Shown here: in pieces, positions 11,040 through 61,247 of the stretch | Position numbering within the stretch: the first letter of the stretch is position 1 | Layout of the letters: the number at the start of each line of letters is the position of its first letter | Source of the DNA: Cyanidioschyzon merolae | Lineage: Eukaryota | DNA: 64,000 nucleotides | NCBI GenBank assembly: GCA_000091205.1 | Contig: AP006502.2 | Strand: one strand, 5' to 3' | Position numbers and translations under genes: made by a program | Notes under the pieces: generated by a model | The model's database searches: none | Told to the model about the DNA's origin: nothing | Seen by the model: the letters and a program-made list of their open reading frames with translations, nothing else

Positions 11040-11180
11040 GAAGGGCCGGGCATATACACTGCATGGCTCACCCATGCTACTGATACTACCGTTGCAGCAG
11101 CAGCAGCAGCAGCAGCTTATGATGATGGTGATGCACCTGATCATGATGCTGCTGCTATATATGCCCCCACAGATGAGACT

Positions 11181-11212
<32 letters not shown>

Positions 11213-21963: not shown

Positions 21964-22446
21964 AACCCAGCTGCATAAACGCTGCTTGTACTTCGTTTTC
22001 GCTGATCTAAATTGTTCTGTTCTGTTCTCACGTAGCTTGATAAGTGGACCAGGTGTGATGAAGAGCGACCCCTTGCACATCAACACTGGCCTTCAACGCC
22101 CGGCGTGAAAGTGCTCTATACACAAAGCAACCCCGTTGCCGCTTGCGATCCGGCTAAGAGCTCGTCAAAGTCTTCCTCGGGCACTAAAGTCGGTATCCTG
22201 CGTGCAGATCGCCCAGTTGCACTCACTCCAAAAGTTTTCACGCAATCGTACGGAGCTCGAGTCCTTCCAGTAAAGATACCAAGCAAGCAACCGTCTAGAA
22301 GACTAGGGCGCAATCCGTTTGTGTAAGCGCGGCGGCTGCGGCGACGACGATTGCAGCAACTGCAGCGCTTGCAAAGCCGCCGCAGCGGTACACCCATGTC
22401 AGAATGAAATGGAAGGGGCCGACTGGCTCAAGCAAACAAATTCGAG

Positions 22447-23431
22447 TTATGGTCTCTTCCCGATGTTATGAACATCAGCCTTCGCGGGCTTTTTCTGTGA
22501 CTGCTTCATATTCCTCTCCCTTATCCGTGGCTTTACATACACTGCTCTCGTCCTTCCTTCCCGCTCCGTTGTCAGCTGGAGAAGGATGTTGATGGCAGCG
22601 ATCAAGTCGCGATTTTGCTGGTTCAAGCTGATGTCAACGCATTTCATGCAAATCCGAAAGTCGCAATCAAACCTTCCTTTGCCATTTCTAGCTTCCTTGA
22701 TCGGAGCCTCTTTGCGCCATGAGCAGCAAGGACGCTTCATCGTGGTCGCGTGTTCCAACGAATCCACCACTTCGCCTCCCCATTGCCGGCCCCGCCACGC
22801 ATGAACGCTTGCCCCTTCGCTCGATGCAGGCCCTTGACAGGCACAGAGGGCTCCTCACAATGCCCACCTCCGGTTTGGCGACCGCTGCAGCACTCGACGA
22901 TCACGGGCGTTTCCTGCATAATCAGCCCGGCAAGTGCTGTGTCCACTGCACGCACACGTGCGAGCTCTTCCATACCATACAGGGTTTATGGAATGAGATG
23001 CGGCCCTAGATGAAACGAGCTCCGGAGGGAAGGCTCAGGGCTGAAGAACACGTCGAGAAATTTCAATCTTTGTACGCCCCTTTCGTGCGAAACGGCAACG
23101 CATACTCTGACCAACGCAATCACTGTGATGACTAAAGTGAGCGTCCAAGACCCTTTTCCATGCGAACGGAATAGAAAGGGACCTGCGGGGGTATGGTACC
23201 TTTCGTGAGTTGCACTGTGCTTGCGTCGAATGCCGATTCGCGAAGAGCCTCAGAGAGCAGGGAATTTGTCTTCCATACAGAATCGATTAGTTGGCACGAC
23301 AATTTCAGGGAACGTTTGGCATGAGCAGTTGAAGAAGCCGTCCAGAGACGACGTCGAGTATTTTCACTCGTCAATCCAGCGGCGCGAATTGCTGCGCCTA
23401 AGACTTGTCCTGCAACGGATAAGATCGACAA
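22447..23431 (-). pseudogene. TnpB/Fanzor-like element, family I, diverged copy. Zn-finger remnant and RuvC-III are retained, and upstream frames are broken.
   Basis: ORF 22447-22770(-) reads '...CDFRICMKCVDISLNQQNRDLIAAINILLQ'. ORF 23132-23431(-), 'TRRRLWTASSTAHAKRSLKLSCQLIDSVWKTNSLL', is homologous to 'TRRRSSTACSQAQAASSLDLSSQIIDSVRRMKTPLF' of the young copies. The 3' nucleotide motif 'cgcgggctttttctgtgactg' lies at 22483-22503. Confidence 0.55.
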
Positions 23432-23921
23432 CTTGAAATATGCGTGATTCTAGCACGCTACACGAACGTAGGGAGGAAGCGCAGAGGTCGTCATTTATGA
23501 ATCGAACAACGATATCGCTTAGTTTACGAGCTATTCATTGGGACGTCGCGAATCATCTTCGAGTCGGCGACTGCGCGACTGACAGCGGCATAACGTTGAA
23601 GGCACCGCTCCGAAAAGACGACTAGGAGTCCTGAACGTATGCATGAATTCGTAAACCCTCATTGCTGTGCTTCGAATATCGAGGTTGTACATGTAAAAAC
23701 AGTTCGGGAAAATTCGCTAGGCAGCAACGGAGCAAGCTGCTCAGTGCTTCATTTTAGTTTGTACGGGTGCGGCCAAGTCCTTCCCAGTAGCTCCTTCCGC
23801 AAAAGGCCGCACTGTTGCGTTCAAGTGAGAATCTCTGTCATATTGCGACATCTAATGAAACAGTATGCGCTTTTCCTGTCATGCTTAGTATCTCCATTCG
23901 AAAGCAGTCGCACTGCAGCCA

Positions 23922-29222: not shown

Positions 29223-29611
29223 CAAGCTGAGCGAGTTGTAGGCGCTGACCTCTACGCTCCTCCGTAAACAAGATCTTCGCGTTAAAAAACGTTCTGATCA
29301 GGGTGCGGGCGAGCATCTCTGTTGGCCAGACACATTTACAGATCCCACCGGAAGGAAAGCTTATCGACGTATGGAATTGGTCCCTATATTACATCCATGA
29401 GGTTTTTATGAGGATTGGGGCATTTAGGGCACGCAAGACGCTGTTCTTGTGCGGTGGGGAACCACTGGAGTACCCTCCATAGAAATCATCACTCGTGGAG
29501 CGTGTCCAGACGTCGCCTAGTGTCTGCATGTTCTGAGCAATTTCAGAATAAAGTGGAATTAGTCCGCTTCTAAAAACGTTCCCGCGAATGTTTCTACCTC
29601 TTCACATTGTG

Positions 29612-30590
29612 ATCGACGCCAGCCAGCGCGGGATTTTTCTGTGACTGGTTCTTCTCCCCGCTCTTATCTCCAGCCTTCAATACGTCGTGCTCTCCTATCC
29701 GTCCAGCTCTGTTGCCAGCAGTCGAGGGATGTTGATGGCAACGTTACAGCCACGATTTCGCCGCTTCCTCTTGTTTTCTACGTATTTCATGTACAGACGA
29801 AGGTTGCAATCAAGCCTTTGCTTCGCATTTTCACCCTTTTTCTGTTCAACTTTAATGCGCCCACATAGCGGTGGTAGGTGACTGCGCTCAGGTCCTCACG
29901 AATGTCCACAACGCCTAATCCGCCAAGCGCCGCCCCGTGGTACATGCGCGCTTGCTTTGTCGCCCGGTGAATGCGCTTGACGAGCGCCGGCGGCTCCCGT
30001 AGATGCCCTCCGGTCCTGCGCCCTGTGCCGTGCGCTACGCTCACGCGCTTTCCCTGAGTAGTCCCGCACGCGAGCACTCTGGCAGCTGCACGCGCAAGCG
30101 CTCGCTGTTCCATTTCAGTCGAGGATTGGTGGTGCGCGATGCTTTCCATGTTGAAATAAGTACCTGAAAAAAGCCCAAGATTGGGAACACATCCAGATAT
30201 TTCGATCAGTCTGTTCCGTCCTCGTGCACAACTGAGACGCACTGTCCACTGGAGGCGATCGCTGCGATGATTCAAGTCTTAGAACAAGATTCTTTTCCAC
30301 GCAGACAGAAGATTCGGGGCCCCCCCGGAGAACACTCGAGAGGTGTCATGCTGCCGTTGGGTGCCATTTCATCCATTGCCACAAAGAGAGGAGTTTTCAT
30401 CCTTCGGGCAGAGTCGATTATTTGGGATGACAAGTCCAGTGAACTCGCGGCCTGGGCTTGTGAACAAGCCGTCGAGGAACGACGTCGAGTTGTTTTCATC
30501 GTCACTGGAACGGCGCTCAGTGCTGAACCCACGAGTTGCCTTGCAACAGAGAGATCGAAATTCGGAGAGTGCGTGATTTGAGCATGTTAC
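29612..30590 (-). mobile_element. TnpB/Fanzor-like element, family I, copy A (truncated at both ends; ~98-99% identical to copies B and C)
   Basis: It shares the same set of ORFs as B and C (MNHRSDRLQW..., MEKNLVLR..., MIQVLEQ...). The RuvC-III region reads 'RNRGCNVAINIPRLL' on the minus strand (29725-29757). Its flanks differ from those of B and C. Confidence 0.6.
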
Positions 30591-31845
30591 ATGTAATTAG
30601 AGAATAAGATCGGAGGCTTGTACGTATAAAATGGATACTGACAGCGTTTTTTTCTATCCCCTGCTCGAGTACGTCGAGAATCGTCTCAGTATCGGTGACG
30701 TAAAGTATTCCACTGGAAAGGCCTCGTAGATGTCGCGCCCAAACAGATTACAGAGACTCCTAATGCTACGTACGAATTCGTAAGCCTCTAGAGCAGCATT
30801 TTGAATCTGGAGGCTCTGGATCAAAAATGACATTCCTAAAATATATTGAAAAATAGGAAGAAAGCAAGCTTTTCGGGGCTGCATCTCAATTTGTCAAGGC
30901 TTTAGCGAGCCGGCCAATCGTCAAAACACTACAAAGAGCATCACTCAAATCTTTAGTTAGTGGAGAAAATCGTATGAACAGCAATTTGTAATATTTCCTA
31001 TATTCCGGAAAGTCCCTTTCATTCAATACAAACTCATTTCCAGTTAATTCCATCGAGCAGAATCGAAGAGAGGGCTATATGGGTATTCCCCGCGGAAATT
31101 ATGTGCATAAGAGCCGCTGTTACTGATGTACGACAGAAAATGTGGTCATTGACGTGTGATATATGCACCAGTGAATTCTGAAACACCTGTACCAATACAT
31201 CTATTTTGTTTGCATTTTTTCTATTATTCTAAGCAAAAGCTTCCATCTTTTGGATTGGGCAGAGGCAGCAAAAACCTCTATGCTGTGAATGGTGGCATGG
31301 GAAGAAGAGCTCTAAAAGTGCAAGTCATTCATTCCGCCGTCAACAGCTGGATAAGGCACAGTTCTGATGGACCTAATCGTACACGTCGTGCATCAAAAGA
31401 AACAGTACTTACAAATTCCATAGAGGCGACTCTCTTTTCTTCCTTCAAATCCAGTTCATAATTTCCCAAAAAACACCACCAAAGAAGCCGCAGGATGAAA
31501 AGTTCTTCTACCGCGGATGCAAACGGCGATGAAGAGGCACAGATGTGCAAAGAAGAAAGCACGATCCTGTGATACTCGCGCAACCTATAGCAAATTGTCG
31601 AATTTGAACTAATACGTGAACTCTTATAATTATAATCCTTGACCTGATTTGTGTTCCGCGCATAGGTGAGCGTAATGGAGTGTTTTCTCGTGGTCTATAG
31701 GAGATACATTTGAAGTACGTTCATTTTCAAAAATAGAAAGTCCAAGTGAAAGCTGCTTATGTGGAAATATTGGGTCCTGGAGAGCCGTCATCGCCGATTA
31801 AGTGAGAAAAGAAGTTCTCGCCGACTATAGAGCGAAAAAGAGCAA

Positions 31846-41885: not shown

Positions 41886-43966
41886 GGCACGCTTCCAGCG
41901 CAACAGAGAACCGCCCGCGTATTGACTGCTACGAAGTTCTTTGGCCGTGGAACGCCCGCGGTACTTAAACACAATTTGGCCCCACCGCTGCGTGGAATCG
42001 AGTGCTTGTCCAAAGCGAGGAGCAAGCGATCGAAATTATTATGCAACGTACACTAAAGATCTTAGGCGAGATCCCTGTAACATAGGTTCTTTATTGGATA
42101 GCGAAGGAGGACTGCATTCCTCCTTCTGGTAAGTCATACGACAGTACTCGGATAGCTGAGGAACCCTGAAAGAGAAAAATACGTGCGCTCAGCGCCAAAA
42201 ACCGGATTCTCATAAACAGTTTTGGTTTTACAGTAGAAAACGACCCGTTGATCACAGTGCACAAAGCAAAAGTGACGACGGTAGCCACCAGGGGCGTCTC
42301 TTTTTCTCGACAGCTTGTTCATATAGTTCTGCAAGCACTAGGATATGGTCGCAAAAAGGGTCCAATTTCATGCACGGCCATCTTCCACTGAAATCGCAAG
42401 TACAGATTTCCTGGAACGAAGCGATTGGTTTGAAGCACGGAGAAGTCGCTTTGTTTTTTCAGTCGATTAGACGTCCTTCCGATGAAATGGTCGAAGCCAA
42501 GGTAGGTTCTCGCGGAGCAGAGAACACGTTCTATGTACAATAGATCTCGAGGAGAACGAAGACGTCATCATCGGTTCTAGCTGCAGTGGAGTCATTTGGC
42601 GGCCTCAGTTTCGCTCGCAGAGAATGCTCGTCCACGAGTGCCGACTTTATCGAATCGTTGAAGACTTTTTCCCTGATGTCTGACAATGCCCTTCTGTTTG
42701 AAAATGCGATATTTCACCATTCCCTTTGTGTTCGACGTTTTCCAGACTCTATCGGGGAGTAGAACTGCTTCTCATACCTCCGAAAGCTCAGTGTTTCAAC
42801 CGCATCGAAAGAGTGTTTGCTATCGTGATATGTAATGATCGCTCCTCTGAGAGAATCCCTGAAGTACTTTGCACGGTGACACCAGGACATGCGTCGTTGT
42901 TGTTCCGCAAGTGCTTCTCCCTCTGAAAAGATCCTCATCTATGGGCAAAAAGAAGTGAGTTCATTTTCAAAAATAGAAAAATGAAGGAAAGTTATGGATA
43001 TGTAAGTCGAAGATACTGGAGGCCCGGCGTTGCCGGGATCCAACAAACGAAAAGAGTGCCGAGCCCAGAGGAACAGGAAAAGACGAAGAAGCAAAAGGGG
43101 CGCTAGATGTCGAGAGCGACACGATAGGGGACACTACGACGAGATTGTACTGAAAGCCTATCTTGTACGCCATATCAAGGATTCGCACTATCAAAAATTA
43201 AAAAAGCCATCAGAAACCGTAGCCCGTCCAACTCCAGATTCGTCGACGAAGAGACATCACCCAGGAGCACGAATGGAGATTCTGTGATCCGTGCTGTTCT
43301 GGGGCTTATCAACCCAACAGAAAATGTATCAGAGATATAAAATGGTGCTATCCCCTCATCCTGCTCTATTTCGTGTTCCTGAACCGAGAACTACAACGCA
43401 AGAAGGAGATGGAGCCGTGTGGGAAAAAATCAAGAGTCGTTGGAACGGAAGGCTTTCCTAATGGATAAGCGCTTCAACGTCGTTCCGTTATGCAACATCA
43501 AGTGGCACGTTGTGGCAACCATCGCAAGCGTCCTTTACGGCATCATGGAGATCTGTCCGGAGTTCGATGTAAGCAGGGATGAATTTACGGGTGAAAACAG
43601 GGAAACTCTTTGGAAGCGCACCTTCGATTTCAAACGTCTCAACACGAGCAAGTGAAAGGTATGCTCGGGGACGATCGAAAGCGATGGGGTATCTAAATGT
43701 GGACACTATTGGCACTTTAAATTGGATCGTTCTATTTTGTCTTCGGCTTCGCCCCCGCCGAAACGTGAAGACACAAGGAGATGGATCCTGCAACGCAGGA
43801 GGTGCAGGAGAACGACTTTGTCATCGGCGTGGAGCCCTGAAATACGAATGTCATGACCATCGCTGCTCCCATGCGTGAGGAAGATGGCACTGACGGCAAC
43901 TTACGACAAAAAGACATCCGTCTTTTAAAGTTCTCAAGAACGAGATATTATTGAGAATCGGGAATT

Positions 43967-44718
43967 ATGAATGCATGGAAAAAAAGTGAGGCATGGAGTG
44001 CAGGAGTGAAGGAGCATCGGGAAGCGATCAGCCGGGTGACGAGCCGCGGAGCGCACTTTCAAACTTCTCGTGAATTCATGAAAATTCGCGCTGCTCATGT
44101 CGCGGAGCTGTGGAGAGAGTATACAAAGTCCCGGTGGGCTCGTCAGCATATGAATCTGTATTGCTGGAAACAGCGTGCATTCGCAAAATTCTTCAATGCG
44201 TTGTGCGCTCTCACAGTTGATAAGAGTCAAAGGCTCGAAATAGCATAAACGCAGGGCCCTGTGTGCCCAGAAAAAGGAGCACACAAGCTTTGTCGAAATG
44301 AACATTCATGGATGGCACCCAGTGTCTTGTTCCGGTACGGATAGATGAATTCCGAACGTCATACGTGCACCATGAGCTGGGGTGTACAATTCAGAAGGTC
44401 GAGATGGAGCGAAGGCAGAGGAGCCCTGATGAGATAGAAAAGTACGGAGAGCTGAAAGATCATCGAACGGCGCAGAGGGCGCGAGTTCGAGGAATCCCTG
44501 CGTGAATGAGTTCCACCGGAGGCAATAAGCCAATGGAGTTCGTGAAGCGAGACTTAAACGCCGCGATCAATATCAGAAGATGTGCCCTGCTGAAGACGAG
44601 ACCTGCAGAGCTGACGCGATCCAAGTTTATGGGGCAGCCCCTTATGCCCGATACGTGCAGGAAGCAGCTGAAGCTGATGGCAGGGAGCCGATCAGAAAAG
44701 GCCGGGAGGCGCCTGTGA
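43967..44718 (+). pseudogene. TnpB/Fanzor-like relic, family II (Zn-finger region degraded; RuvC-III and tail retained)
   Basis: 'VRIDEFRTSYVHHELGC' resembles V-x-P-x-YTSQ-x-C-x-x-CG with its Cys residues lost. After a frame change comes 'EFVKRDLNAAINIRRCALLKTRPAELTRSKFMGQPL...KLMAGSRSEKAGRRL'. Confidence 0.5.
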
Positions 44719-44790
44719 GGGGGTGTGAATTTACCCCACATGGTCCTGGGACATTTTTTCTTTTACTGAGGATACTATATTTGTTTCAAA

Positions 44791-46135
44791 TTAAAATGGT
44801 CCGTTAAGCTGCGCGCACTGTTTCTGCACTTCGATTTTTCCGAACACTTTTCGATATACAGCCTCATCATCCAATGTACTGCGACCGGGGGCTCCGCTTC
44901 ATCTGTTCTTTAGGGCTCTCTGTCGTCATCTCGAAGTGTCGACTCCGGCTCCGTGCCGCTGGAGCTCGTTCAGCCACACCAACTGGGATGGTTCGCGGCG
45001 CCCCACGGGCAAGAGTTCGTGAAAGTACTGATATCACAACTTAATTTTTACTTAAGAGCTTCCACTCTATTTCTTTCCCCGACTTGCGCCATGCTCAAAT
45101 CACGCACTCTCCGAATTTCGATCTCTCTGTTGCAAGGCAACTCGTGGGTTCAGCACTGAGCGCCGTTCCAGTGACGATGAAAACAACTCGACGTCGTTCC
45201 TCGACGGCTTGTTCACAAGCCCAGGCCGCGAGTTCACTGGACTTGTCATCCCAAATAATCGACTCTGTCCGAAGGATGAAAACTCCTCTCTTTGTGGCAA
45301 TGGATGAAATGGCACCCAACGGCAGCATGACACCTCTCGAGTGTTCTCCGGGGGGCCCCCGAATCTTCTGTCTGCGTGGAAAAGAATCTTGTTCTAAGAC
45401 TTGAATCATCGCAGCGATCGCCTCCAGTGGACAGTGCGTCTCAGTTGTGCACGAGGACGGAACAGACTGATCGAAATATCTGGATGTGTTCCCAATCTTG
45501 GGCTTTTTTCAGGTACTTATTTCAACATGGAAAGCATCGCGCACCACCAATCCTCGACTGAAATGGAACAGCGAGCGCTTGCGCGTGCAGCTGCCAGAGT
45601 GCTCGCGTGCGGGACTACTCAGGGAAAGCGCGTGAGCGTAGCGCACGGCACAGGGCGCAGGACCGGAGGGCATCTACGGGAGCCGCCGGCGCTCGTCAAG
45701 CGCATTCACCGGGCGACAAAGCAAGCGCGCATGTACCACGGGGCGGCGCTTGGCGGATTAGGCGTTGTGGACATTCGTGAGGACCTGAGCGCAGTCACCT
45801 ACCACCGCTATGTGGGCGCATTAAAGTTGAACAGAAAAAGGGTGAAAATGCGAAGCAAAGGCTTGATTGCAACCTTCGTCTGTACATGAAATACGTAGAA
45901 AACAAGAGGAAGCGGCGAAATCGTGGCTGTAACGTTGCCATCAACATCCCTCGACTGCTGGCAACAGAGCTGGACGGATAGGAGAGCACGACGTATTGAA
46001 GGCTGGAGATAAGAGCGGGGAGAAGAACCAGTCACAGAAAAAGCCCGCGCTGGCTGGCGTTGGTGGCATCGGGAAGAGATCCGAAGCTGGGTTGATTCGC
46101 CCTCGTCAGCCGAGTGCAATCTTTCAATTTTTTGT
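44791..46135 (+). mobile_element. TnpB/Fanzor-like element, family I, copy B (full ~1.34-kb unit, about 99.5% or more identical to copy C)
   Basis: It has the same ORF set as A and C. The RuvC-III region 'KRKRRNRGCNVAINIPRLL' lies at 45916-45948. The 3' region 'ccagtcacagaaaaagcccgcg' lies at 46029-46050. Ends were defined by where identity with C stops. Confidence 0.65.
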
Positions 46136-47683
46136 CTCGCATGGTAAGGGGCTGTGTGGAGCGGCGAAGAAATGAGAGACGCTTCGTGACGCGCCCCGTT
46201 GCCTACAGTGCTAGGCGAATTATGCAGCCGCATACGCGCGATTTGTGAGCAAACATGCCCGTACATTCAAAATCATTCTGCGTATAGTTTATCTTAGACT
46301 GAGCCCGTACCCCTCTGGGCATACTGAGCTGAGATGCGCTCTGTCTATCATAGTACAGATCATGGAAAAAGCCGTGTCATGTGCTGCATGCAAAAAGGTA
46401 CTTTCTGCAGGAATCTTTGTTTTCTGATGCAGCGCGGTTTGAGCTTCGTTTTCAAATGGAACATTTAGTTGTAAAATATTAAGGACAACAGAGGGCCTGG
46501 CTTCATACGCGTTACCGAAGCCATTAAGGCCTAAATCCTGATGCGAAATTGCTTCTGGCCGTTTCTTGGAAAACGAACGGACTTCGAATGCTATTTTTCT
46601 GCATGTTCTTCCATTATGAGACAACAACCTTGGGACTTATCGTGCCCCTTATGTCTGCTACATGGTTTGCTATTCCAGGAGAGCCCCAACAGGAAAAATG
46701 TGCGTGAAATTCCACCGCGAATCTTTTGTGAGGCCTTGAATCATAGGGGCGCCTAAAATACAGAGTCTACGCTGCTTAAAATCCGAATGAAAATATCCTG
46801 CGCCCCTGGGAACGAGAGTGCTTTCCCGAAAAGAGGGGCCCTCTGGAGCGATTTCTTTGTTCTCTTCGATTGACAATTCTTGGAATGTGTGGATATTTTG
46901 AACGTATACGCAAAATCACGGGGAGTTACGCCCAACAAACTTGCACGCGTGAATAGTGGATGAGGTTCATTAAGGCGTAAATTTTTGGTCTTCGAGGTTC
47001 CCCTGAGCGCCTATTCCCAATCATGAAGTAAAGAATTTACATATCTCTCCTCACGCATCTAGCACTGTAAGTACACTCGCAACTTGTTTCCGAATGTATG
47101 ATCAGCCACTCTGAAGCTAGTCATGAAGAGTTCATTCGCAATGTCTGGCGCATTTTCAAGCCTTTCAAGGTCTGATACCCTCTAAATGATATGCCATGAG
47201 GAAGACGCGTCAAGTAGACTAGCACTTCCTGCGCAGTGATAGCCCACCTATTTGATTCACAAAAGAACCTTTGAGCGAAGTGAAAAATACATCGAGCTTC
47301 CGAGAAGCAGGTTCCGTACTCCGAAACGCAAACTTCAACAATGCCACGGTAATTGCCATATGGATGCCGACTATGTTGCGTGCAAGGCTCAGGAACTTGA
47401 TACAATCAAACATTTTCCACCAGGAAGAGCCTACACTCCAACCTTGTATCCAAAGCCTCACGCAGTTTGAAGAATTTCTTGTAACGATGCAACAATCGTG
47501 CTTCAGCTATTTTCTTCGTGTGAGGCCCGCAAGTATAGAAGTCAGCCCTCGCTCCCTTACATTCTCTCGGTAAAACCATTATTGAAGCTAGTTGCTGTAC
47601 GAAACAGGTTCCCAAGCAGAAGCTACACCTATAGGTGGAACTTTTAGAGTTAAGCGCTCGGTGGTGAAACCGCAACTCCCAGC

Positions 47684-48097
47684 CTAGACGTTGAAGGACT
47701 CACCACAGCCGCAGGTTCCCTTCGCATTCGGGTTCCGGAAAACAAACTCACTGGCCAGGTCGTTTTCAACGTAATCCATTTCTGTGCCAACTACGTGAAG
47801 CATAGCTCTTGGGTCTACGAGTACTCGAACCCTCCCGTCCGCAGAAACGACTTCCTCTTCGAAACGTCTCCTCTCCTTCGCGTAGTCGAGCTGGTAAGAC
47901 AGCCCATTGCAGCCGCGCTGCTTCAGGGACAGTCGAACACCGTAAGACTCGGGATGTTTTTCGAGAAGGGACCGCAAACGCTTCGCTGCGGCTTCCGTTA
48001 TAGTCATAGCGGCTCTGCTGCGACACATGGTCAGAAACAGTTGTGTGGAAATCAAAACTTTGATTGCAATCTTTCGCTTCGCTTCCGGATATGACAC
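47684..48097 (-). CDS. IscA/HesB (A-type carrier) iron-sulfur cluster assembly protein
   Basis: 'ITEAAAKRLRSLL...GVRLSLKQRGCNGLSYQL' and the C-terminus 'GTCGCGESFNV' are present. Confidence 0.8.
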   Translation of the reverse strand: MSYPEAKRKIAIKVLISTQLFLTMCRSRAAMTITEAAAKRLRSLLEKHPESYGVRLSLKQRGCNGLSYQLDYAKERRRFEEEVVSADGRVRVLVDPRAMLHVVGTEMDYVENDLASEFVFRNPNAKGTCGCGESFNV

Positions 48098-49110
48098 GTC
48101 GTCGCCTCGTCACGTTCAGCAAGGCTTGTACCATTGTACCCACATATGAGTGCTTCAACCGGTGCACTTACTGTAATTTTCGAAAAGATGCTTCGGGTTG
48201 GATATCACTCTCCAAGGCGGCTGAGATTGCGCGAACTAACCGGGACGCTGGAGCAACGGAAGCTCTCGTTCTTTCCGGAGAAGTCCACCCAAAAAGTTCC
48301 CTCAGGAGGCACTGGATAGCACACACTGTCGAAATCTGCAAAGTTGCCATCCAGAATGGCTTGCTGCCGCACGTAAACGTAGGACCACTCAGCTGGGGTG
48401 AAATGAAAGAGCTCACAAAGTTCAGCGTGAGTATGGGTCTGATGTTGGAACAAGTCACAGATAAGTTAATGGCAAGCGTGCACCGAAGAGCACCTTCGAA
48501 AGACCCCTCACTTCGCATCGAACAGTTGCATCTTGCGGGTCAGCTGAAGATACCTTTCACAACAGGAATTCTTGTCGGTCTCGGAGAAGAAGAATGTGAT
48601 TGGAAAACCTCCCTGAATTGTATAGCAGCGGTGCACAACAAATACGGGCATATCCAAGAATGCATCATACAGCCCTTTCGTCCTGGTGATCGTGGTTACA
48701 TTTCGGGCCCGAAATTGAATGCATTCCATAGCGAGGCCCTTCCGTATGTTGTGTCACTCGCTCGCAAGATACTACCGACAGAAATCGCTATACAGATTCC
48801 ACCGAATTTAGTACTGTCTGATACAGACCGCCGAAAGGGACTAGAGCTCGTGTTCCGGTGCCTCGAAGCAGGGGCGTCCGATCTCGGAGGTATTTCCCCT
48901 GTCGATGAAGTTAATCCGACCTATGCGTTTCCTAGTATTACATGGCTGAGAGAAGTTCTTTTACTAGAGGGGTTCGAGCTTATGCACCGTTTGCCTATCT
49001 ATGAGCAATATATTCCATGGATTCAGAAAGCAGAGAAATTCGAACATCTTCAAAGACTCTTTCCCGTATACAAGCAAGGCAACTCAGCCAAATCAACCCC
49101 GAAATCGTGA
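48064..49110 (+). CDS. Radical-SAM protein of the CofG/CofH (FO synthase) family, single-subunit size
   Basis: 'VTFSKACTIVPTYECFNRCTYCNF' has a C-x3-C-x-Y-C-x-F cluster, and 'DAGATEALVLSGEVHP' follows. These match CofG/CofH. MqnC/E and ThiH/HydG are lower-probability alternatives. Confidence 0.5.
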   Translation: MQSFASLPDMTRRRLVTFSKACTIVPTYECFNRCTYCNFRKDASGWISLSKAAEIARTNRDAGATEALVLSGEVHPKSSLRRHWIAHTVEICKVAIQNGLLPHVNVGPLSWGEMKELTKFSVSMGLMLEQVTDKLMASVHRRAPSKDPSLRIEQLHLAGQLKIPFTTGILVGLGEEECDWKTSLNCIAAVHNKYGHIQECIIQPFRPGDRGYISGPKLNAFHSEALPYVVSLARKILPTEIAIQIPPNLVLSDTDRRKGLELVFRCLEAGASDLGGISPVDEVNPTYAFPSITWLREVLLLEGFELMHRLPIYEQYIPWIQKAEKFEHLQRLFPVYKQGNSAKSTPKS

Positions 49111-49321
49111 TTTTTTGACAAGCTCTGATAGGAGACCTTCACAAATGAGCCCACGTATCTATAACGGCTCGCAAAATATGTGCTGCAAAGGGCGACGTGA
49201 ACATTGCTAACTAGGCGAAGATTGTTTTTCGTAGAGGGTTGGCTGAAATTAGTCAAGTTGCAAAATTTTCGAAGATTTTTACCTTTTCAGAGATGGTTTC
49301 CGTCACTTCACCAGTGTAAGC

Positions 49322-50665
49322 CAACAAATGAACGATCGCACTCGGCTGACGAGGGCGAATCAACCCAGCTTCGGATCTCTTCCCGATGCCACCAACGCCA
49401 GCCAGCGCGGGCTTTTTCTGTGACTGGTTCTTCTCCCCGCTCTTATCTCCAGCCTTCAATACGTCGTGCTCTCCTATCCGTCCAGCTCTGTTGCCAGCAG
49501 TCGAGGGATGTTGATGGCAACGTTACAGCCACGATTTCGCCGCTTCCTCTTGTTTTCTACGTATTTCATGTACAGACGAAGGTTGCAATCAAGCCTTTGC
49601 TTCGCATTTTCACCCTTTTTCTGTTCAACTTTAATGCGCCCACATAGCGGTGGTAGGTGACTGCGCTCAGGTCCTCACGAATGTCCACAACGCCTAATCC
49701 GCCAAGCGCCGCCCCGTGGTACATGCGCGCTTGCTTTGTCGCCCGGTGAATGCGCTTGACGAGCGCCGGCGGCTCCCGTAGATGCCCTCCGGTCCTGCGC
49801 CCTGTGCCGTGCGCTACGCTCACGCGCTTTCCCTGAGTAGTCCCGCACGCGAGCACTCTGGCAGCTGCACGCGCAAGCGCTCGCTGTTCCATTTCAGTCG
49901 AGGATTGGTGGTGCGCGATGCTTTCCATGTTGAAATAAGTACCTGAAAAAAGCCCAAGATTGGGAACACATCCAGATATTTCGATCAGTCTGTTCCGTCC
50001 TCGTGCACAACTGAGACGCACTGTCCACTGGAGGCGATCGCTGCGATGATTCAAGTCTTAGAACAAGATTCTTTTCCACGCAGACAGAAGATTCGGGGGC
50101 CCCCCGGAGAACACTCGAGAGGTGTCATGCTGCCGTTGGGTGCCATTTCATCCATTGCCACAAAGAGAGGAGTTTTCATCCTTCGGACAGAGTCGATTAT
50201 TTGGGATGACAAGTCCAGTGAACTCGCGGCCTGGGCTTGTGAACAAGCCGTCGAGGAACGACGTCGAGTTGTTTTCATCGTCACTGGAACGGCGCTCAGT
50301 GCTGAACCCACGAGTTGCCTTGCAACAGAGAGATCGAAATTCGGAGAGTGCGTGATTTGAGCATGGCGCAAGTCGGGGAAAGAAATAGAGTGGAAGCTCT
50401 TAAGTAAAAATTAAGTTGTGATATCAGTACTTTCACGAACTCTTGCCCGTGGGGCGCCGCGAACCATCCCAGTTGGTGTGGCTGAACGAGCTCCAGCGGC
50501 ACGGAGCCGGAGTCGACACTTCGAGATGACGACAGAGAGCCCTAAAGAACAGATGAAGCGGAGCCCCCGGTCGCAGTACATTGGATGATGAGGCTGTATA
50601 TCGAAAAGTGTTCGGAAAAATCGAAGTGCAGAAACAGTGCGCGCAGCTCAATGGACCATTTTAAT
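49322..50665 (-). mobile_element. TnpB/Fanzor-like element, family I, copy C (full ~1.34-kb unit, inverted relative to B)
   Basis: Its 162-aa, 104-aa and 61-aa ORFs are identical to those of B. The RuvC-III region is identical to B on the minus strand. Confidence 0.65.
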
Positions 50666-52309
50666 CTCTCACCGAGCTTGAACCGTCGAGAAATTCTAGC
50701 TGGAAGCGCGAAATTTGCGCGCGCGTTTGCATAGATTTTCGATCGCGATCTGAATTGTTCTCTTTATTTGGGAGCAATGTTTCATAACGTGCTTAGGCTC
50801 CTTACAAGTGTCGTGGCAGAAAACCGAACGGTCCAGTTCTGTTTGACGGGATTCTCGAACAACAATATCGCCGGAAGTTCGAGGGATTTGCATTCAGAAC
50901 AGAATATGTATTTCTTACGATTTCTTTGCTGGCAGCTTCGGGACCAGTGAGGTGGTTGGTTAATTCCAGTGAATCACTAATGTACAGCGAACCTTTATCG
51001 TTATATACTTGCACAGGAAAGCGTTTTCCTGTATTTACACTCGATTCACTAACCTCAATGGTTTGCTGTGCCATTCCATGCCAGAACCATGCTCCAGGCC
51101 AGAATACCATAAGTCTCATCTGGGTCAATTACTCTCTCTCACGGCAATACTTTAGCGTTTCAGGAGAATGGATTGACTGAGTATTGAATGATTCCCTGGG
51201 AAGTTAACTCGACTCAAAGATGCTGAACGCTTCCAATGCACAAAACATTTCCGGACTTTGATCGAGGCGCTCACTTCTCGTTGCGGAGAATATTTGAGCG
51301 AATTTTTGCTGGTAGGAGCACACCCGAGCAAGTCTCTCACCTAGCTTTGCACTCCCATTTGACGTCTGCTCAGCTTGCTGGGGATCATCTGGTGAATCAG
51401 GCTCGTTTCACTTGTTTCCCCAGCAGCAATTTCAGTTTGCATTCTGCGCTCGTAATAAGTTTACGCCGCCTTGAATTCAATGGTGGTACTCGTAGAGAAT
51501 CATCTCTGCAATCAGTTCTCGCGCTCGTAGAAGGAACAGAAGAGCATCTTTGTACGCTATAACTCCAAGATCGTCACTGTCTACCTTCGAAACACAAGGC
51601 ATATCTGCCATTTCTTTTTTTGACTCCACTGAAGAAAAATGGCGAATGAACGCTTCCTGCATCCGTACAATCGACTGCATTGCGTTCCCCAGCGCAGGTC
51701 AACTAACCTCTAACGAAGATCGTCTTCAAGAGCCAGTTGGACTTTCAGGTCCTCTCTGGATCTAACCTCCACAGCATGCCACTCAGATGGATACGGTGCT
51801 CCAACCGTCGCTATCGGTTGTAACCCCGTCATTCCAAACGTTCGTGTGCCTCCTGACGCCCATCATGCTTCACTCTAGTATAAAGCCCTCGAAAATTTGC
51901 ACACTATCATCTGGATTCTGTTCAACTCTTTCATTCCGCTCTCTTGATTTTGAGATAAGGCAACCGCGCGATGTATTTCTCTTCATTTATCTTGGACGGT
52001 TGAAAATCAGCATCGTTAGTTGAGTCAAGTTTAAGTTTCACAAAGTGCATGCAGCCTGGTCTTCCGTCGGTCTCCATTCTCCCTGCGTACTCCTTACGAT
52101 TTCCTGCCCTGTAAGGCGAAACGTCGAATCAGCTCTACCCATGATCTTCGGAAAGCTGTTCGAGTGACCCGTGCTCGCTGCCAGAGACCGGCCGTAGCCC
52201 ACTGAGTGGAACGTATAGTACAGAGGAGTCTGCTGTGATTAGTGGGCGTTGAAGTGACGAACGAGGGCCGCTTCGAGCAGACGCTTACGGAGTCGAGTGC
52301 ACCCGCATT

Positions 52310-52620
52310 GGTGGACGGAGTCTGCTTCGCTCTCGAGGGCTCTCTTGAGGCAAATATAATGGGGCGAGAGATGCAAGCAAGGCAGGTACCCCGTTAACGC
52401 CATGGTATGGATAAGACTTGTGCCGATCCTCTCGAGGGCTCTTTTGAGGCGAATATAATGGGGCGCGGAATGCAAGCAAGGCAGGTATCCCGTTGACACC
52501 ATCGTATGGATAAGACTTGTGCCGATCCTCTCGAGGGCTCTCTCGACGCGAATATAGTGGTGCGCGAATTGCAAGCAAGGCAGGTATCCCGTTGACGCCA
52601 TCGTATGGATAGGACGTGTG
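52310..52620. repeat. Tandem repeat, ~93-bp unit with at least 3 copies
   Basis: 'tgccgatcctctcgagggctct[c/t]t[t/c]gaggc[a/g]aatataatggggcg[a/c]g[a/g]gatgcaagcaaggcaggta[c/t]cccgtt[a/g]ac[g/a]ccatggtatggataagacttg' repeats. It sits in an AT-rich, gene-free stretch. Confidence 0.8.
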
Positions 52621-54682
52621 GCGATCCGAGTCCGAGATCCACTCGATAGGCGCGGGCGATCTGACGCGAGTCTCGCTCTCGGTGCGATATCGCTTCCGGC
52701 GTCGTTGGCACCTCGATCCCATCTGTCACCATCAGCTTGTCATTTGCCTCCTTCGGCACTCCAAGAAACCGTTCTATCAGTCACCACTTTTTTGGGCCAG
52801 TAAGGTGGCTAAAACGGTTCTAACTTCCAAACGGTGAACCGATTGAAGCACTCGAGATTGTCTCGCGTATCGTTTCATTTTTCAGGTTGATTCGATATTT
52901 TTCTCTTTCGTCATAGATATTCCGATTGCTGATGTGATTTCATGACGTACAAATGTTTTCTCGCAAGCGTGCGTGCAGATCTTGTATACTGCGATCAGGC
53001 CGTGTTTCACGTTCTGTCGCGAACGCTGGTAGAAGAACGAAGGATTTGTACAAAAATCCGTGTGGAATGAGGGCAGCTCGCAATGCGCATCCGGAACTTG
53101 CACGAGCATTTGCATGACGAGCTGTGCCATGGCAAGAGAAGCTATACTAGCCTTCCTCGGGTAAAAGGCTACACAATATCTGATGGGGTCGTGCATGTCA
53201 CATGTAGGAAAATTCTTCCTGTTAAAATATTTTAGTCGGTTGGCTTCGCAGAGATTCCAGACCAAACGCTCCGACCAATTGTCTTTCCTGTGCATTCTTG
53301 TCTTACACTTGGTAGAATCTTTCTCTCCATTTTCTAGCAGTATTTCGCCTTCTCTTGCGCTCAGCTTGCTGGCTTCATTGTCGTCGGTAAACTCAACATC
53401 CGTTTTTCCGCCTGATTCATACGTACCGGATGGACGGTGAGATCAAGGCTCGCTTATTGTGAGTAAATAAGATTGCATCTTTTTTCCCACATATAACTTT
53501 ACATCATCTGTTCCCTAGCGACTTTGCCCATGGAATGGGATGTGCGTTTTGGTTCCCTCGCGCGCTCGCAAAGAGAAGCAATAGTTTGTTTCAGGACAAT
53601 AGAAAGAAGAGAATGATTTGTCTACGAGCGTTTTCACGAGCACGATAGACTCGTTCTCGCAGATGGCGTCTCACTATGTGAGACGAACATGCCCTTTGTG
53701 TGATAGAAATTCGCGTTTCAGTGCGAGATCGATAATATACAGTTAATCGTGCGACAATCTCACAATGTGGCGTAATTTTTTTGCTCATCCGTTTCTTTTC
53801 AATATCGTTCATATTAACGGTACATAAACTTCACATCACTTCTTTTCTTTGGTAGCTTTTCGTAGAGAACGTAGGGAATGGAATGGATCGATGGGGGAAG
53901 ACGCGTGTAGGTACAGTTTCGCAAATTCAGGCATGAGTGCATGACGTTCAGAACAAGGGCTAAACGAAGGGAAGCTCATCAACCTTTGAACCATAGAGCG
54001 ACTGACAGACGTAATGCCATTTTTCGCAGGCTCGTAGTGACAGCATACCCTCTCCCGAAACCTCTCTCCAGTTTGCAGGATGCATTTCATTTGTTGGTTA
54101 CGAGCGAGAAAATCAAAAATAAACAAAAAGAATGCGCTAGTCAATGTGCAACAGAACTCACTGTTCTGCGCACAACCACTCTGAGCGTAACGAACACGAT
54201 TCAATCGTGTAAAGCGTGTTTTCCGGGTGCTCCCACCATCGCACGATCTCATACCAAGTTACTTGAGGAGCGTACTTAATAGATCGTTTCCCCATACCCA
54301 GACACTGTCGTATGTCACAACGGCATACCAGTGCGCTTAGGAGTCAACTGACGACAAGTCAGGGAGTATACGCGAAGGGAGCCACACCGAGTGGCTCAAA
54401 ACCGGCTCCCGCGCCAATGCGCGTAGCTCTTGTACAATGGCTGCATAACCGCTTTTCATAGAAAACCAAAATGAAACCTAAGGCGTGTTGCAGCGACCAG
54501 CAAATCATCAATACTTTTTGGGCCGATTGGCGAGGGCGACTCCATCGACCGTTACACGAATCTCCGAGGCGGCGGATCCGCGACGCCTGCGGCTGCGATT
54601 TTATCTTCTAAATAATTTCGCATCCGCACAGTTCTAGCTCACAGTTGCCGATAGTAGTTTCCGGCTCCTTAGTTTCGTTTAG

Positions 54683-59360: not shown

Positions 59361-61247
59361 CTAACGCATTTGCGGTGCCTGTAGGATAGATCCATCCAAC
59401 GTGATGCCCAGTAAACGCAAAAATACGGCGATTTCTTCCCTCGAGTTTTCATCCGCAATACGTTGCTCCAAGTCTGAGAAACAGGAAGCGGTCCGTCGCC
59501 CTTGAACCGCATCAATCCCTTCAGGATGTAGCGATCCGTGCATGCTATTCAAATCGAGGCTCGGTCTCGAAAGGACCTGCTTATCCTCTCTGGTCGCCGT
59601 TGGACGTCCCGGAAAGGGTGAATTGCTCCGTTTGACTGTGTTCGTGCAATGATGCATTGAATCTGTGAATCTCGCGGACCGACTCGGAGCTGGGAGGTGC
59701 GCGTTTTTGATCGGAGCCTTTGGGATTTTCAGACGATCAAACCACCGATGCTTGAGCAACTCTTGACAAGACGGACGTTGCCTGTAATCTTGGGCTAAGC
59801 ATAAGGCAAGAAAGTTACGAGCGTTACTACTGAGGCGAATTTCCTGCGGAATTTCAGGCGATCCTTTTTCAAGCAGCGTTACGATCAAGTCAAGGTGTCC
59901 TCTGCAGCCCAAATAGTCATCATAGTTTGGATGCTTCCCTTGCAGGCACTCAAGGAGGCTGATTCCAAGACTATAAATATCCGCTCGGTAATCGTAAGGA
60001 CTCGCGCGAAGCATCTCGGGTGCCATATAAAGGCAAGTCCCGACGAATTTCCCTTCCCGAACTGGTCCGTGCACTCCGAGATCGGAATTATCTTTCTGAG
60101 GATTCTTCTGCACAGATATTGATGAAGATAGACCAAAATCTGCGAGTTTCACTTGCCCAAGACGATTCAACAGAAGGTTGGACGGCTTCACATCCCGATG
60201 CACGCGATGGCAGACGTTGTGGACGAACTGGAGTGCTCGGAGCGTCTGCCACGCAATCGCTCGTACAACTGATTCAGACAGCCGCTTCACGGACGATCGG
60301 CGGTATAAGCCGTCGATGCTTCCGACGTCCATAAGCTCCATAAGAATCATGACCCTGTTTCCGTCCTCGACGATTTCATGGTAATGAACGATGTTTTCGC
60401 AGTCGTGCGCTCGGGCCATTCTCAAGACGGATACTTCGCTTCGTATCTGAGCACGATGCGAGCTTGAATCAATGATCTTTATCGCTATCGGCTCCGATTT
60501 GTCCTTGTACATGGCAAGCTGAACAGATGCGAAGGAACCGCTTCCGATTGTACGGAGAAATTGTAGATGGTTCGCTTTCAGGCCAGAGCCAGTTCCAAAG
60601 CTATTAGATGTCGGACAATCAGATACTTGCATAACACGCGAGACACCCGATTCCATACGAGAGGATTTCATGGAAACGTCTTCCTGTTTGAGAGATTTCC
60701 AATCGGCCGCGGCCTGTCGAGTTTCATAGCTGGTTTCGCCTGCCTCTCCGGCAGATATACTACAAGCCATCACTTGTCGTTCTGCAGTCGAGTACGCGGT
60801 AGGAGCTTCATCTGCCTCTGCACAGCACTCAAAACTCGCACCGTACTCATCGTTTGGTTGGAGTGGGTCTCCAAAGTTGAGATCCGTTTCATTCAGGGTG
60901 AGCTTGCCGAGCCCGCGGCGAACGCTCAGGCTCTTGCTACGTGTTTCTAATAGATTCGATACTGCCACGACAGAATTCGAGGTTGCACTTCCGTAGTTGT
61001 CTTGAGGACGTTTTCGATTGTTCACAGCCGACGCTTGCAAACGCGTCTCGTCTGCAGCTGGTGGTGGACTTCGAGCGACCTTCCCTTTGAGGAGCCCGCT
61101 CAACCAGAGCGGGACGCGGTGGCGCCCTCGCTTCGGGGCAACTCGCCCGAGACGCGAATCAACTTGCGCATACCCTGGTGCGAACCGAGAGTGCAGTGTG
61201 CTGCCTTCTCCAGAGTGCTCCTCTGCGAACCGAAGACATCGCAACAT
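59361..61247 (-). CDS. Ser/Thr protein kinase, MAP kinase kinase (STE7)-like
   Basis: 'IGSGSFASVQLA...IAIKII', 'VHRDVKPSNLLLNRLGQVKLADFGLS' and 'GTCLYMAPE' are present. A long N-terminal non-kinase region means the true start may be internal. Confidence 0.7.
   Translation of the reverse strand: MLRCLRFAEEHSGEGSTLHSRFAPGYAQVDSRLGRVAPKRGRHRVPLWLSGLLKGKVARSPPPAADETRLQASAVNNRKRPQDNYGSATSNSVVAVSNLLETRSKSLSVRRGLGKLTLNETDLNFGDPLQPNDEYGASFECCAEADEAPTAYSTAERQVMACSISAGEAGETSYETRQAAADWKSLKQEDVSMKSSRMESGVSRVMQVSDCPTSNSFGTGSGLKANHLQFLRTIGSGSFASVQLAMYKDKSEPIAIKIIDSSSHRAQIRSEVSVLRMARAHDCENIVHYHEIVEDGNRVMILMELMDVGSIDGLYRRSSVKRLSESVVRAIAWQTLRALQFVHNVCHRVHRDVKPSNLLLNRLGQVKLADFGLSSSISVQKNPQKDNSDLGVHGPVREGKFVGTCLYMAPEMLRASPYDYRADIYSLGISLLECLQGKHPNYDDYLGCRGHLDLIVTLLEKGSPEIPQEIRLSSNARNFLALCLAQDYRQRPSCQELLKHRWFDRLKIPKAPIKNAHLPAPSRSARFTDSMHHCTNTVKRSNSPFPGRPTATREDKQVLSRPSLDLNSMHGSLHPEGIDAVQGRRTASCFSDLEQRIADENSREEIAVFLRLLGITLDGSILQAPQMR

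What the first reader, a model, noticed from the sequence alone, without database searches (positions are those of the whole stretch)
44791..50665. Recently amplified TnpB/Fanzor-like (OMEGA-type) element family whose young copies carry Gly in place of the RuvC-III catalytic Asp
Three copies (29612-30590 -, 44791-46135 +, 49322-50665 -) are about 98-100% identical over 1.0-1.34 kb, and their encoded ORFs are identical. Their flanks differ, so they are dispersed insertions rather than one segmental duplication. Their C-terminal coding end reads '...NKRKRRNRGCNVAINIPRLL'. Diverged relatives in the same window read 'CGKQRNRDLNAAINIPELQ' (61.5 kb) and 'CDFRICMKCVDISLNQQNRDLIAAINILLQ' (22.5 kb). 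That is the C-x-x-CG zinc finger plus the D-R-D-x-NAA-x-NI RuvC-III motif that defines TnpB and its eukaryotic Fanzor homologues.

In the young subfamily the Asp codon gac has become ggc (Gly) and the neighbouring Leu has become Cys. The copies that proliferated most recently are therefore predicted to be nuclease-dead. This implies either mobilisation in trans, domestication, or a non-catalytic, guide-dependent role. The unit is TnpB-sized at about 1.3 kb, which is more Fanzor2-like.
Basis: partly seen in the sequence, partly recalled or inferred. Interest (0 to 1): 0.85.

Follow-up and report, generated by a model that had tools for sequence, protein, structure and literature searches.

The report
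Dead TnpB-like repeats homogenised by conversion
The three near-identical 1-1.3 kb segments in this Cyanidioschyzon merolae (red alga) chromosome are old, broken relics of a small TnpB/Fanzor-like mobile element that gene conversion has made alike; they are not a newly spreading nuclease-dead family, so the finding is largely ordinary.

Summary
Segments 44790-46132(+), 49323-50665(-) and 29598-30586(-) are 99-100% identical. They read ...NRGCNVAINI... where diverged relatives at 22.5 and 61.5 kb read NRDLxAAINI (GAC to GGC).

The interpretation mostly fails.
- The window is C. merolae 10D, which already has a known Fanzor1 family, CMe-1A. A decayed CMe-1A copy (42953-44772) ends 15 nt before copy C.
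- The repeat is a separate ~1.36-kb element, here called 'U', with five copies in the window. The old copies are 55-65% identical.
- No U copy has an ORF: each frame carries 10-13 stops, and the motif lies in a 66-codon open stretch.
- The near-identity comes from gene-conversion tracts inside old copies. C and D are identical only over 44807-46117, and their homologous edges are diverged.
- Copy B is identical only over 45090-46060. Its 5' 300 nt is an old, diverged homologue.
- Environmental strains carry the same three loci and share strain-specific SNPs across paralogues.
- No other young copy was found.

TnpB ancestry of U rests on the C-terminal motif and sub-threshold profile hits. Asp-to-Gly is one lesion in a pseudogene, spread by conversion. 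Interest is low.

The parts
44788..46145 (+). U copy C: full ~1.36-kb decayed TnpB-like repeat. Ends are approximate to about 10 nt.
   Evidence: All five copies start to align at AAATTAAAATG and stop aligning near ...CATGGT / ...ATGGGTGT. Each frame has 10-13 stops.
44807..46117 (.). Tract of perfect identity between copies C and D (1311 nt); interpreted as a gene-conversion tract.
   Evidence: No differences inside the tract. There are 2 mismatches in the 17 nt to its left, and about 9 of 30 in the homologous 30 nt to its right.
49310..50667 (-). U copy D, inverted relative to C. Its identity tract is 49338-50648.
29535..30892 (-). U copy B, a mosaic. 29616-30586 is 99.7% identical to C and D (C coordinates 45090-46060). 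Its 5' 300 nt (30587-30892) and its 3' tail are old, diverged U sequence.
   Evidence: Mismatch list. The B 5' region is homologous to the same region of C, A and E (z 12.6-19.7, 0 of 300 shuffles), while control flanks give z -1.4.
22390..23760 (-). U copy A, an old relic about 65% identical to C. It keeps the Asp codon (NRDLIAAINI) and a Cys cluster (CDFRICMKC).
   Evidence: PF07282 13.2 bits
61365..62691 (-). U copy E, an old relic. It has NRDLNAAINI and can be read in one frame with 6 in-frame stops.
   Evidence: PF07282 19.4 bits, E 1.2e-3; NF040570 11.4 bits
45919..45948 (+). RuvC-III-like motif in copy C (N R G C N V A I N I). GGC replaces the GAC seen in copies A and E.
42953..44772 (+). 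Decayed copy of the known Fanzor1 element CMe-1A ('F'). It has RuvC-I (VIGVEP*N), RuvC-II (VRIDEFRTS) and RuvC-III (KRDLNAAINIRRC) motifs, plus stops, frameshifts and a 409-nt internal deletion. It ends 15 nt before U copy C and is not part of the repeat.
   Evidence: blastn against the published CMe-1A consensus gives 77% (consensus 869-1155 and 1565-3010). tblastn with CMe-1 protein gives E 1e-108. The family HMM scores 253 bits.
47684..49110 (.). Two intact host genes between the inverted U copies: an Fe-S biogenesis (PF01521) gene on - and a radical-SAM (PF04055) gene on +.
   Evidence: ORFs; Pfam labels on the orthologous metagenome genes

Best explanation
The window (Cyanidioschyzon merolae 10D) holds five copies of an old, ~1.36-kb, non-coding repeat, here called 'U'. 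U is the decayed remnant of a small TnpB/Fanzor-type gene. It is distinct from the Fanzor1 element CMe-1A already described in this alga.

The three 'young' copies are not new insertions. They are old copies whose interiors were overwritten by ectopic gene conversion, that is, homologous recombination between dispersed and inverted repeats. The tract covers almost the whole element between C and D, and only the 3' 971 nt in B. The Asp-to-Gly change at the RuvC-III position arose once in an already dead copy and was carried to the other two by conversion. It has no functional meaning.

Shown: the mosaic structure, the absence of ORFs, occupancy of the same loci in other strains, and strain-specific SNPs shared among paralogues. 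Inferred: TnpB ancestry (motif level only), and homologous recombination as the process.
For: Organism.

Five copies have common ends and sizes of 1327-1371 nt. The old copies are 55-65% identical, with no third-position bias in their divergence.

No coding capacity remains: 10-13 stops per frame, and the motif lies in a 66-codon open stretch.

Mosaicism:
- C and D have 0 differences in 1311 nt, yet their homologous edges are diverged. The probability that all 11 differences fall in the outer 47 nt by chance is about 1e-16. The right-edge 30 nt is still homologous, 21 of 30 matches, p 7e-6.
- B is 99.7% identical only over 45090-46060. Its 5' 300 nt is an old homologue, z 12.6-19.7 against shuffles.

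Concerted evolution: metagenome contigs from other strains (flanks 99.3-99.7% identical to 10D) have U copies at the same B and C/D loci. They share alleles across paralogues (for example 45852C and 45746C at both B and D loci), where all three 10D copies carry G.

No sign of a burst: a pattern scan of metagenome contigs and two exact-ORF look-ups found the similar type only at the B and C/D loci. Logan assemblies collapse exactly the 971-nt three-copy tract.

C. merolae integrates DNA by homologous recombination (PMC3764038).

TnpB ancestry: the NRDLxAAINI motif sits after Cys remnants in copies A and E. PF07282 gives 19.4 and 13.2 bits on that stretch, more than the 11 bits scored by the accepted Fanzor1 CMe-1 protein. 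NF040570 gives 11.4 bits. hhalign finds the expected motif, VAHGTGR against VAYGAGRW, E 4.8e-4.
Against: All profile hits are below the curated thresholds. hhalign probability is only 32%.

No homologue of the conceptual U protein or profile was found among 5.8 billion proteins or in the PDB. The RuvC-I and RuvC-II assignments are therefore by eye only.

Conversion and a full-length new insertion of D cannot be told apart by the 5' edge alone (2 mismatches in 17 nt). The case for C/D rests mainly on the 3' edge and on the strain data.

Metagenome contigs can collapse or mis-join repeats, so the shared-SNP pattern is suggestive, not proof.

I could not scan the rest of the 10D genome for further near-identical copies.
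Confidence: 0.7

Rival explanations
1. Recent transposition of a non-autonomous U subfamily, mobilised in trans.
For: The copies are 99-100% identical, dispersed over 21 kb and in both orientations. U has discrete ends shared by five copies, so it was once mobile.
Against: The identity tracts stop inside the element, and the edges are diverged but homologous. B is a mosaic with an old 5' 300 nt. All three loci are already occupied in other strains. No other young copies were found. There are no TIRs and no TSDs. No intact U-type protein exists in 5.8 billion sequences to act in trans. The CMe-1 family profile does not recognise U.
Confidence: 0.08
2. A single inverted segmental duplication created D from C (or C from D), and a second partial duplication created B. 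No older copies pre-existed at those sites.
For: The inverted arrangement of C and D around a 3.2-kb spacer resembles a palindromic duplication.
Against: The C/D similarity starts within about 3 nt of the family's 5' terminus as defined by the independent copies A, E and B, and no flanking sequence is shared. Diverged but homologous U sequence lies just outside the tracts in D (3' edge) and in B (5' 300 nt and 3' tail). A fresh segmental copy would not leave that pattern.
Confidence: 0.07
3. U is not derived from a TnpB/Fanzor gene at all. The NRDLNAAINI string is either a small captured fragment, for example from a CMe-1-type Fanzor1 3' end, or a coincidence, and the rest of U is unrelated non-coding repeat.
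For: Every profile hit covers only the last 16-20 residues of the models. Neither the conceptual proteins nor the 3-sequence profile finds any homologue. A 3-copy consensus does not improve the scores. The CMe-1 HMM finds nothing in U.
Against: The motif is far too specific to be chance, with 0 expected. It sits at the right place in a TnpB-sized unit, about 200 nt before the 3' end. It is preceded by Cys clusters and, further upstream, by collinear GIEEMALN, VAHGTG and IPDCSHMS-type strings. hhalign picks the expected pre-RuvC-II motif. The true Fanzor1 CMe-1 scores even lower against the same Pfam model, so weak scores are expected for this lineage.
Confidence: 0.15
4. Assembly artefact: the near-identical copies are a mis-assembly in the reference.
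For: None specific.
Against: Independent metagenome assemblies reproduce the C-spacer-D arrangement (L008/L014, L013, L015, L016) and the B locus (L004, L005, L011, L012).
Confidence: 0.01

Closest known systems
CMe-1A, the Fanzor1-carrying element of Cyanidioschyzon merolae (Bao & Jurka 2013, PMC3627910): 3169-bp consensus, 734-aa Fanzor1, about 150 copies each about 80% identical to the consensus, no TIRs, TSDs undetermined
   Same: Same genome and similar age of decay. Both lack TIRs and TSDs, and both have a C-terminal NRDxNAAINI motif. A CMe-1A copy (42953-44772, 77% to the consensus) lies 15 nt upstream of U copy C. Other CMe-1 relics lie 0.5-0.9 kb from the 5' ends of copies A, B and D.
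   Different: U has no DNA similarity to the CMe-1A consensus and is not hit by CMe-1 protein or the family HMM. It is 1.36 kb rather than 3.2 kb. U lies outside the published consensus, which ends about 60 nt after the Fanzor1 stop codon.
Prokaryotic TnpB (IS200/IS605, IS607) and eukaryotic Fanzor2: TnpB-sized RNA-guided RuvC nucleases
   Same: The unit size (~1.36 kb, room for about 400 aa) is TnpB-like. The RuvC-III-like motif follows Cys remnants near the 3' end. The weak hits are to PF07282 (Cas12f1-like TNB domain) and NF040570 (guided_TnpB).
   Different: U has no ORF. No significant profile, sequence or PDB match was found. There is no serine-recombinase or TnpA partner. The 3' ends show no detectable structured RNA (z 0.05, 1.2, -0.4) and there is no Rfam hit. 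Subfamily placement is impossible with these data.
Concerted evolution of dispersed or inverted repeats by ectopic gene conversion, as in palindrome arms, rDNA and duplicated genes
   Same: Perfect identity is confined to internal tracts, with diverged homologous edges. One copy is a mosaic. Paralogues within a genome are more alike than orthologues between strains.
   Different: Here the substrates are dead transposon relics 3-21 kb apart in a very compact algal genome. The direction and timing of the transfers were not determined.

Membership tests
TnpB / Fanzor (OMEGA RNA-guided nucleases) | RuvC-III motif (D-x-N-A-A-x-N-I with catalytic Asp) | tested here: inconclusive
   The motif is present with Asp in old relics A and E and with Gly in B, C and D. 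Pfam PF07282 scores 19.4 and 13.2 bits against a 26.3-bit cutoff. NF040570 scores 11.4 bits against a cutoff of 100.
TnpB / Fanzor (OMEGA RNA-guided nucleases) | Complete split RuvC domain (RuvC-I Asp, RuvC-II Glu) upstream of the motif, with a RuvC fold | tested here: inconclusive
   Only by-eye candidates exist (GIEEMALN / VAMDEMAPN; IPDCSHMS / VVDIREDLS). hhalign against the CMe-1 family aligns only the pre-RuvC-II motif (E 4.8e-4, probability 32%). There are no hits in 5.8e9 proteins or the PDB. Structure prediction is not meaningful for a stop-ridden sequence.
TnpB / Fanzor (OMEGA RNA-guided nucleases) | Zn-finger / TNB insertion between RuvC-II and RuvC-III | tested here: inconclusive
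   Cys remnants only: A has CC...C....C..C, E has C......C, and C has lost most of them.
TnpB / Fanzor (OMEGA RNA-guided nucleases) | Intact ORF of about 400-800 aa | tested here: not met
   Each frame of copy C has 10-13 stops and the longest open stretch is 163 codons. Copy E has 6 in-frame stops. Divergence among copies shows no codon periodicity.
TnpB / Fanzor (OMEGA RNA-guided nucleases) | omegaRNA encoded at the 3' end of the element | tested here: inconclusive
   The 3' 150 nt of C, A and E fold no better than shuffles (z 0.05, 1.21, -0.43). There is no Rfam match. The 46009-46067 segment is only slightly more conserved, 0.68 against about 0.58. Expression is not testable here.
CMe-1A (Fanzor1 element of C. 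merolae) | DNA or protein similarity to the published CMe-1A consensus or CMe-1 protein | tested here: not met
   No blastn, tblastn or HMM hit falls in any U copy, whereas the neighbouring relic 42953-44772 matches at 77% DNA identity and 253 bits.
Fanzor2 | Clusters with IS607-type TnpB; often accompanied by a serine recombinase | not testable with these tools
   No alignable protein remains. No recombinase ORF lies within or beside the U copies. Only the unit size is suggestive.
Recently active transposon subfamily | Identity extends to the element termini, insertion polymorphism between strains, copies scattered in the genome | tested here: not met
   The tracts end inside the element. The same loci are occupied in other strains. 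Only the B and C/D loci were recovered. The whole 10D genome could not be scanned.
Gene-conversion (concerted-evolution) tracts | Mosaic copies: a perfect internal tract flanked by old, diverged homologous sequence; paralogues share strain-specific alleles | tested here: met

The most novel reading that the evidence does not exclude
U is a second, previously undescribed TnpB-sized (Fanzor2- or TnpB-like) OMEGA lineage in a red alga. Its copies are non-randomly paired with CMe-1A Fanzor1 relics: a CMe-1 relic lies 15-920 nt from the 5' end of four of the five U copies, three of them in the same orientation. That could reflect targeted insertion, or homing, of one guided-nuclease element next to another. 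The conversion tracts might then be footprints of nuclease-induced, break-driven homing rather than of spontaneous recombination.
Probability: 0.07. Interest if true: 0.55.

Novelty: new member of a known kind. Interest (0 to 1): 0.17.

Why it matters
It matters little for nuclease biology. Fanzor elements in C. merolae have been known since 2013, and the supposed 'nuclease-dead but proliferating' clade is a set of pseudogene relics homogenised by recombination.

Three points have modest value. First, there appears to be a second, TnpB-sized, extinct OMEGA-like repeat family in this very compact genome, outside the published CMe-1A consensus. Second, this is a clean example of ectopic gene conversion keeping dead repeats identical in an alga known for efficient homologous recombination. 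Third, it is a caution: near-identity of repeats should not be read as recent transposition without checking the tract edges.

Tried and rejected
- Pfam and NCBIfam scans of frame-stitched translations of copies C, A, E and of a 3-copy consensus gave only sub-threshold hits to the last 16-20 model positions. The consensus did not help. A DDE_3 hit (E 0.016) appeared only on the artificial consensus and was treated as noise.
- The search for homologous proteins with the conceptual protein of copy C returned only a trivial metagenome ORF from the same locus. With the 3-sequence profile it returned nothing at E<=10.
- PDB sequence searches with the profile and with the consensus C-terminus found nothing.
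- hhalign of copy C alone against the CMe-1 family was too weak to use (probability 2.4%).
- I tested whether U is the 3' part of CMe-1A. It is not: the published consensus ends about 60 nt after the Fanzor1 stop, near 44772.
- I tested for TIRs (score equal to shuffles) and for TSDs (none).
- I tested 3' RNA structure (no signal), Rfam and tRNA (none).
- Exact look-ups of several window proteins failed because the start codons differ from the annotated ones.
- Codon-periodicity analysis could not identify the ancestral reading frame, because divergence is neutral.


Full report
ORGANISM AND CONTEXT. An exact-sequence look-up of the 628-aa ORF at 59361-61247(-) identifies it as the C. merolae strain 10D MAP kinase kinase (BAM83243.1 / XP_005539279.1), on a 1.62-Mb chromosome. 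The window is gene-dense and nearly intron-free, with GC about 0.52. It contains no tRNA or Rfam-family genes.

THE OBSERVATION. The repeat finder reports an inverted pair, 44790-46132 and 49323-50665 (1343 nt, 3190 nt apart), and a third copy, 29598-30586, matching 45090-46078 at 99%. Base-by-base, C and D are identical across 44807-46117; all six mismatches sit in the outer 17 and 15 nt. B differs from C at three sites within 45090-46060 and diverges beyond that.

The quoted peptide strings are correct translations. In aligned DNA the similar copies read AAT CGT GGC TGT AAC GTT GCC ATC AAC ATC. The relics at 22.5 and 61.5 kb have GAC at the third codon and TTG or CTC at the fourth.

NO GENE REMAINS. 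Each forward frame of copy C has 10-13 stops. The longest open stretch is 163 codons. The stretch that carries the motif is 66 codons (45781-45981), and its first Met gives a 28-residue peptide. Linking the TnpB-like strings requires at least two frame changes.

Relic E can be read in one frame, but with six in-frame stops. Differences among copies C, A and E are spread evenly over codon positions. The copies have therefore diverged as non-coding DNA. C. merolae has almost no introns (established knowledge), so splicing cannot rescue a frame.

A KNOWN FANZOR1 ELEMENT LIES NEXT DOOR. Directly upstream of copy C, 42953-44772(+) carries canonical motifs: VIGVEP*N, VRIDEFRTS and KRDLNAAINIRRC. Bao & Jurka (2013, PMC3627910) described one Fanzor1 family in C. 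merolae, CMe-1A. It has a 3169-bp consensus, a 734-aa protein, about 150 copies each about 80% identical to the consensus, no TIRs and undetermined TSDs.

I took the consensus from their supplement and mapped it. Consensus positions 869-1155 and 1565-3010 match 42953-43236 and 43238-44642 at 77%. The CMe-1 protein matches at E 1e-108. Homologues of this relic are abundant in acid-hot-spring-type metagenomes and keep D, E and D.

The consensus ends about 60 nt after the stop codon, near 44772. The repeat under study therefore lies outside CMe-1A. Neither the consensus, nor the protein, nor a family HMM run with all filters off hits any copy of it. Further CMe-1 relics lie at 328-604, 7057-7259, 24680-25243, 31631-32212 and 51191-52260.

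THE REPEAT IS A SEPARATE ~1.36-KB ELEMENT, 'U', WITH FIVE COPIES. Sensitive BLAST and alignments show five copies with common ends:
- A: 23760-22390(-)
- B: 30892-29535(-)
- C: 44788-46145(+)
- D: 50667-49310(-)
- E: 62691-61365(-)

They measure 1327-1371 nt. Each begins A(A/G)A(T/C)T(A/G)A(A/G)ATG, and they stop aligning near ...ATGG(G)TGT. The old copies are 55-65% identical along their whole length. I found no TIRs (score equal to shuffles) and no TSDs.

WHY THREE COPIES ARE NEARLY IDENTICAL. Four lines of evidence point to gene conversion rather than new insertion.

First, the C/D identity is an internal tract. Beyond 46117 the two copies remain homologous for about 30 nt, but at only 70% identity (21 of 30 matches, p 7e-6). 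The first 17 nt carry 2 mismatches. If 11 differences were spread at random over the element, the chance that all fall in the outer 47 nt is about 1e-16.

Second, B is a mosaic. Only 45090-46060 is C-type (99.7%). Its 5' 300 nt is a diverged homologue of the same region in C, A and E (local-alignment z 12.6-19.7, 0 of 300 shuffles). Control flanks give z -1.4. Its 3' tail is also diverged.

Third, other strains carry the same loci. Contigs whose unique flanks are 99.3-99.7% identical to 10D have U at the B locus (L004, L005, L011, L012) and the C/D locus (L008/L014, L013, L015, L016). Several variants are shared by B-anchored and D-anchored contigs of those strains, for example 45852C, 45746C and 45502T. 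All three 10D copies carry the other allele. Paralogues more alike than orthologues is the signature of concerted evolution. The caveat is that short-read assemblers can collapse repeats.

Fourth, there is no sign of a burst. A pattern that accepts both the Asp and the Gly allele found six metagenome stretches, all orthologous to loci A, B, C/D or E of this window. Look-ups of two ORFs internal to the unit returned only B or C/D contexts, plus two Logan contigs of 971 and 953 nt, which is the collapsed three-copy tract.

C. merolae is known for efficient homologous recombination (PMC3764038). The most economical reading is ectopic gene conversion among old copies. A recent transposition burst does not fit these data.

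IS U REALLY TnpB-DERIVED? Probably, but only at motif level. The evidence in favour:
- NRDLxAAINI follows Cys remnants in copies A and E.
- Its position, about 200 nt before the 3' end of a TnpB-sized unit, is as expected.
- Upstream strings are collinear with Fanzor motifs: GIEEMALN / VAMDEMAPN; QRALA...VAHGTGR; IPDCSHMS / VVDIREDLS.
- PF07282 hits E (19.4 bits, E 1.2e-3) and A (13.2 bits). NF040570 hits E (11.4 bits). The accepted Fanzor1 CMe-1 protein scores only 11 bits on PF07282.
- hhalign of the U profile against the CMe-1 family aligns VAHGTGR with VAYGAGRW (E 4.8e-4, probability 32%).

The evidence against:
- All scores are below the curated cutoffs.
- The similar copy itself hits nothing.
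- No homologue exists among 5.8 billion proteins or in the PDB.
- A three-copy consensus does not improve matters.
- The 3' ends show no excess RNA structure.

VERDICT. The sequence facts are right. 'TnpB/Fanzor-like' is plausible for the ancestor of U. The central claim, a recently expanding clade defined by a catalytic Asp-to-Gly change with implications for trans-mobilisation or domestication, is not supported. Asp-to-Gly is one of many lesions in a dead relic, and conversion copied it to two neighbours.

Fanzor elements in this species are already published. U appears to be an additional, extinct, small family. Whether Repbase already lists it could not be checked. Interest is low.

Noticed in passing
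window 42953-44772 (+), and CMe-1 relics at 24680-25243 (-), 31631-32212 (+), 51191-52260 (-): Four of the five U copies have a relic of the Fanzor1 element CMe-1A within 15-920 nt of their 5' end: C 15 nt, D about 520 nt, A about 920 nt (all same orientation), and B about 740 nt (opposite orientation). The intervening spacers are not homologous to one another. Under a null that confines relics to intergenic DNA, the association is not clearly significant (rough p about 0.07).
   Followed up: partly
window 24680-25243 (-) and 31631-32212 (+): Two CMe-1A relics share the same architecture: consensus positions about 822-969 are joined to about 2851-3020. They look like copies of an internally deleted, non-autonomous ~0.56-kb derivative of CMe-1A. 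They are 65% identical to each other.
   Followed up: partly
L005:9392-12553, L012:2615-5534, L004:1-1447 (metagenome contigs orthologous to window locus B): In three metagenome contigs the B-locus flank continues through the shared tract into C-type sequence: the U 5' region and the CMe-1A relic, as far as window 42901. In L004 it continues into a novel junction with an inverted U fragment that is only 89.7% identical. Either conversion tracts are longer or rearranged in those strains, or the contigs are chimeric across the 971-nt repeat.
   Followed up: partly
window 46146-49309 between the inverted U copies: The 1.3-kb inverted repeats bracket two intact host genes, an Fe-S biogenesis gene (PF01521) and a radical-SAM gene (PF04055). 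All four metagenome contigs that span part of this region are collinear with 10D, so no repeat-mediated inversion was seen.
   Followed up: partly
window 52330-52626: Three tandem 99-nt units, 86-91% identical, lie directly upstream of the CMe-1 relic at 51191-52260. They were not compared with the CMe-1A 5' region or with TE-N2_CMe.
   Followed up: no
alignment A1 (metagenome CMe-1 homologues, e.g. P0020, P0082): Environmental CMe-1-type Fanzor1 proteins carry a variable number (0 to about 6) of ~25-residue acidic repeats (KDEEKKEAGPATQEVEDNDLVV) immediately before the RuvC-I motif. The published consensus has one.
   Followed up: no
window 11101-11407; 16782-17040; 63254-63387: Other short tandem or near-tandem repeats: an 81-nt periodicity inside the ORF region near 11 kb, a 126-nt pair spaced 133 nt apart, and a 67-nt pair. 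The 126-nt pair is also present in metagenome contig L009.
   Followed up: no
window 34001-36000: A local GC peak (0.63 against about 0.52) coincides with an 817-aa ORF on the minus strand. It was not examined.
   Followed up: no
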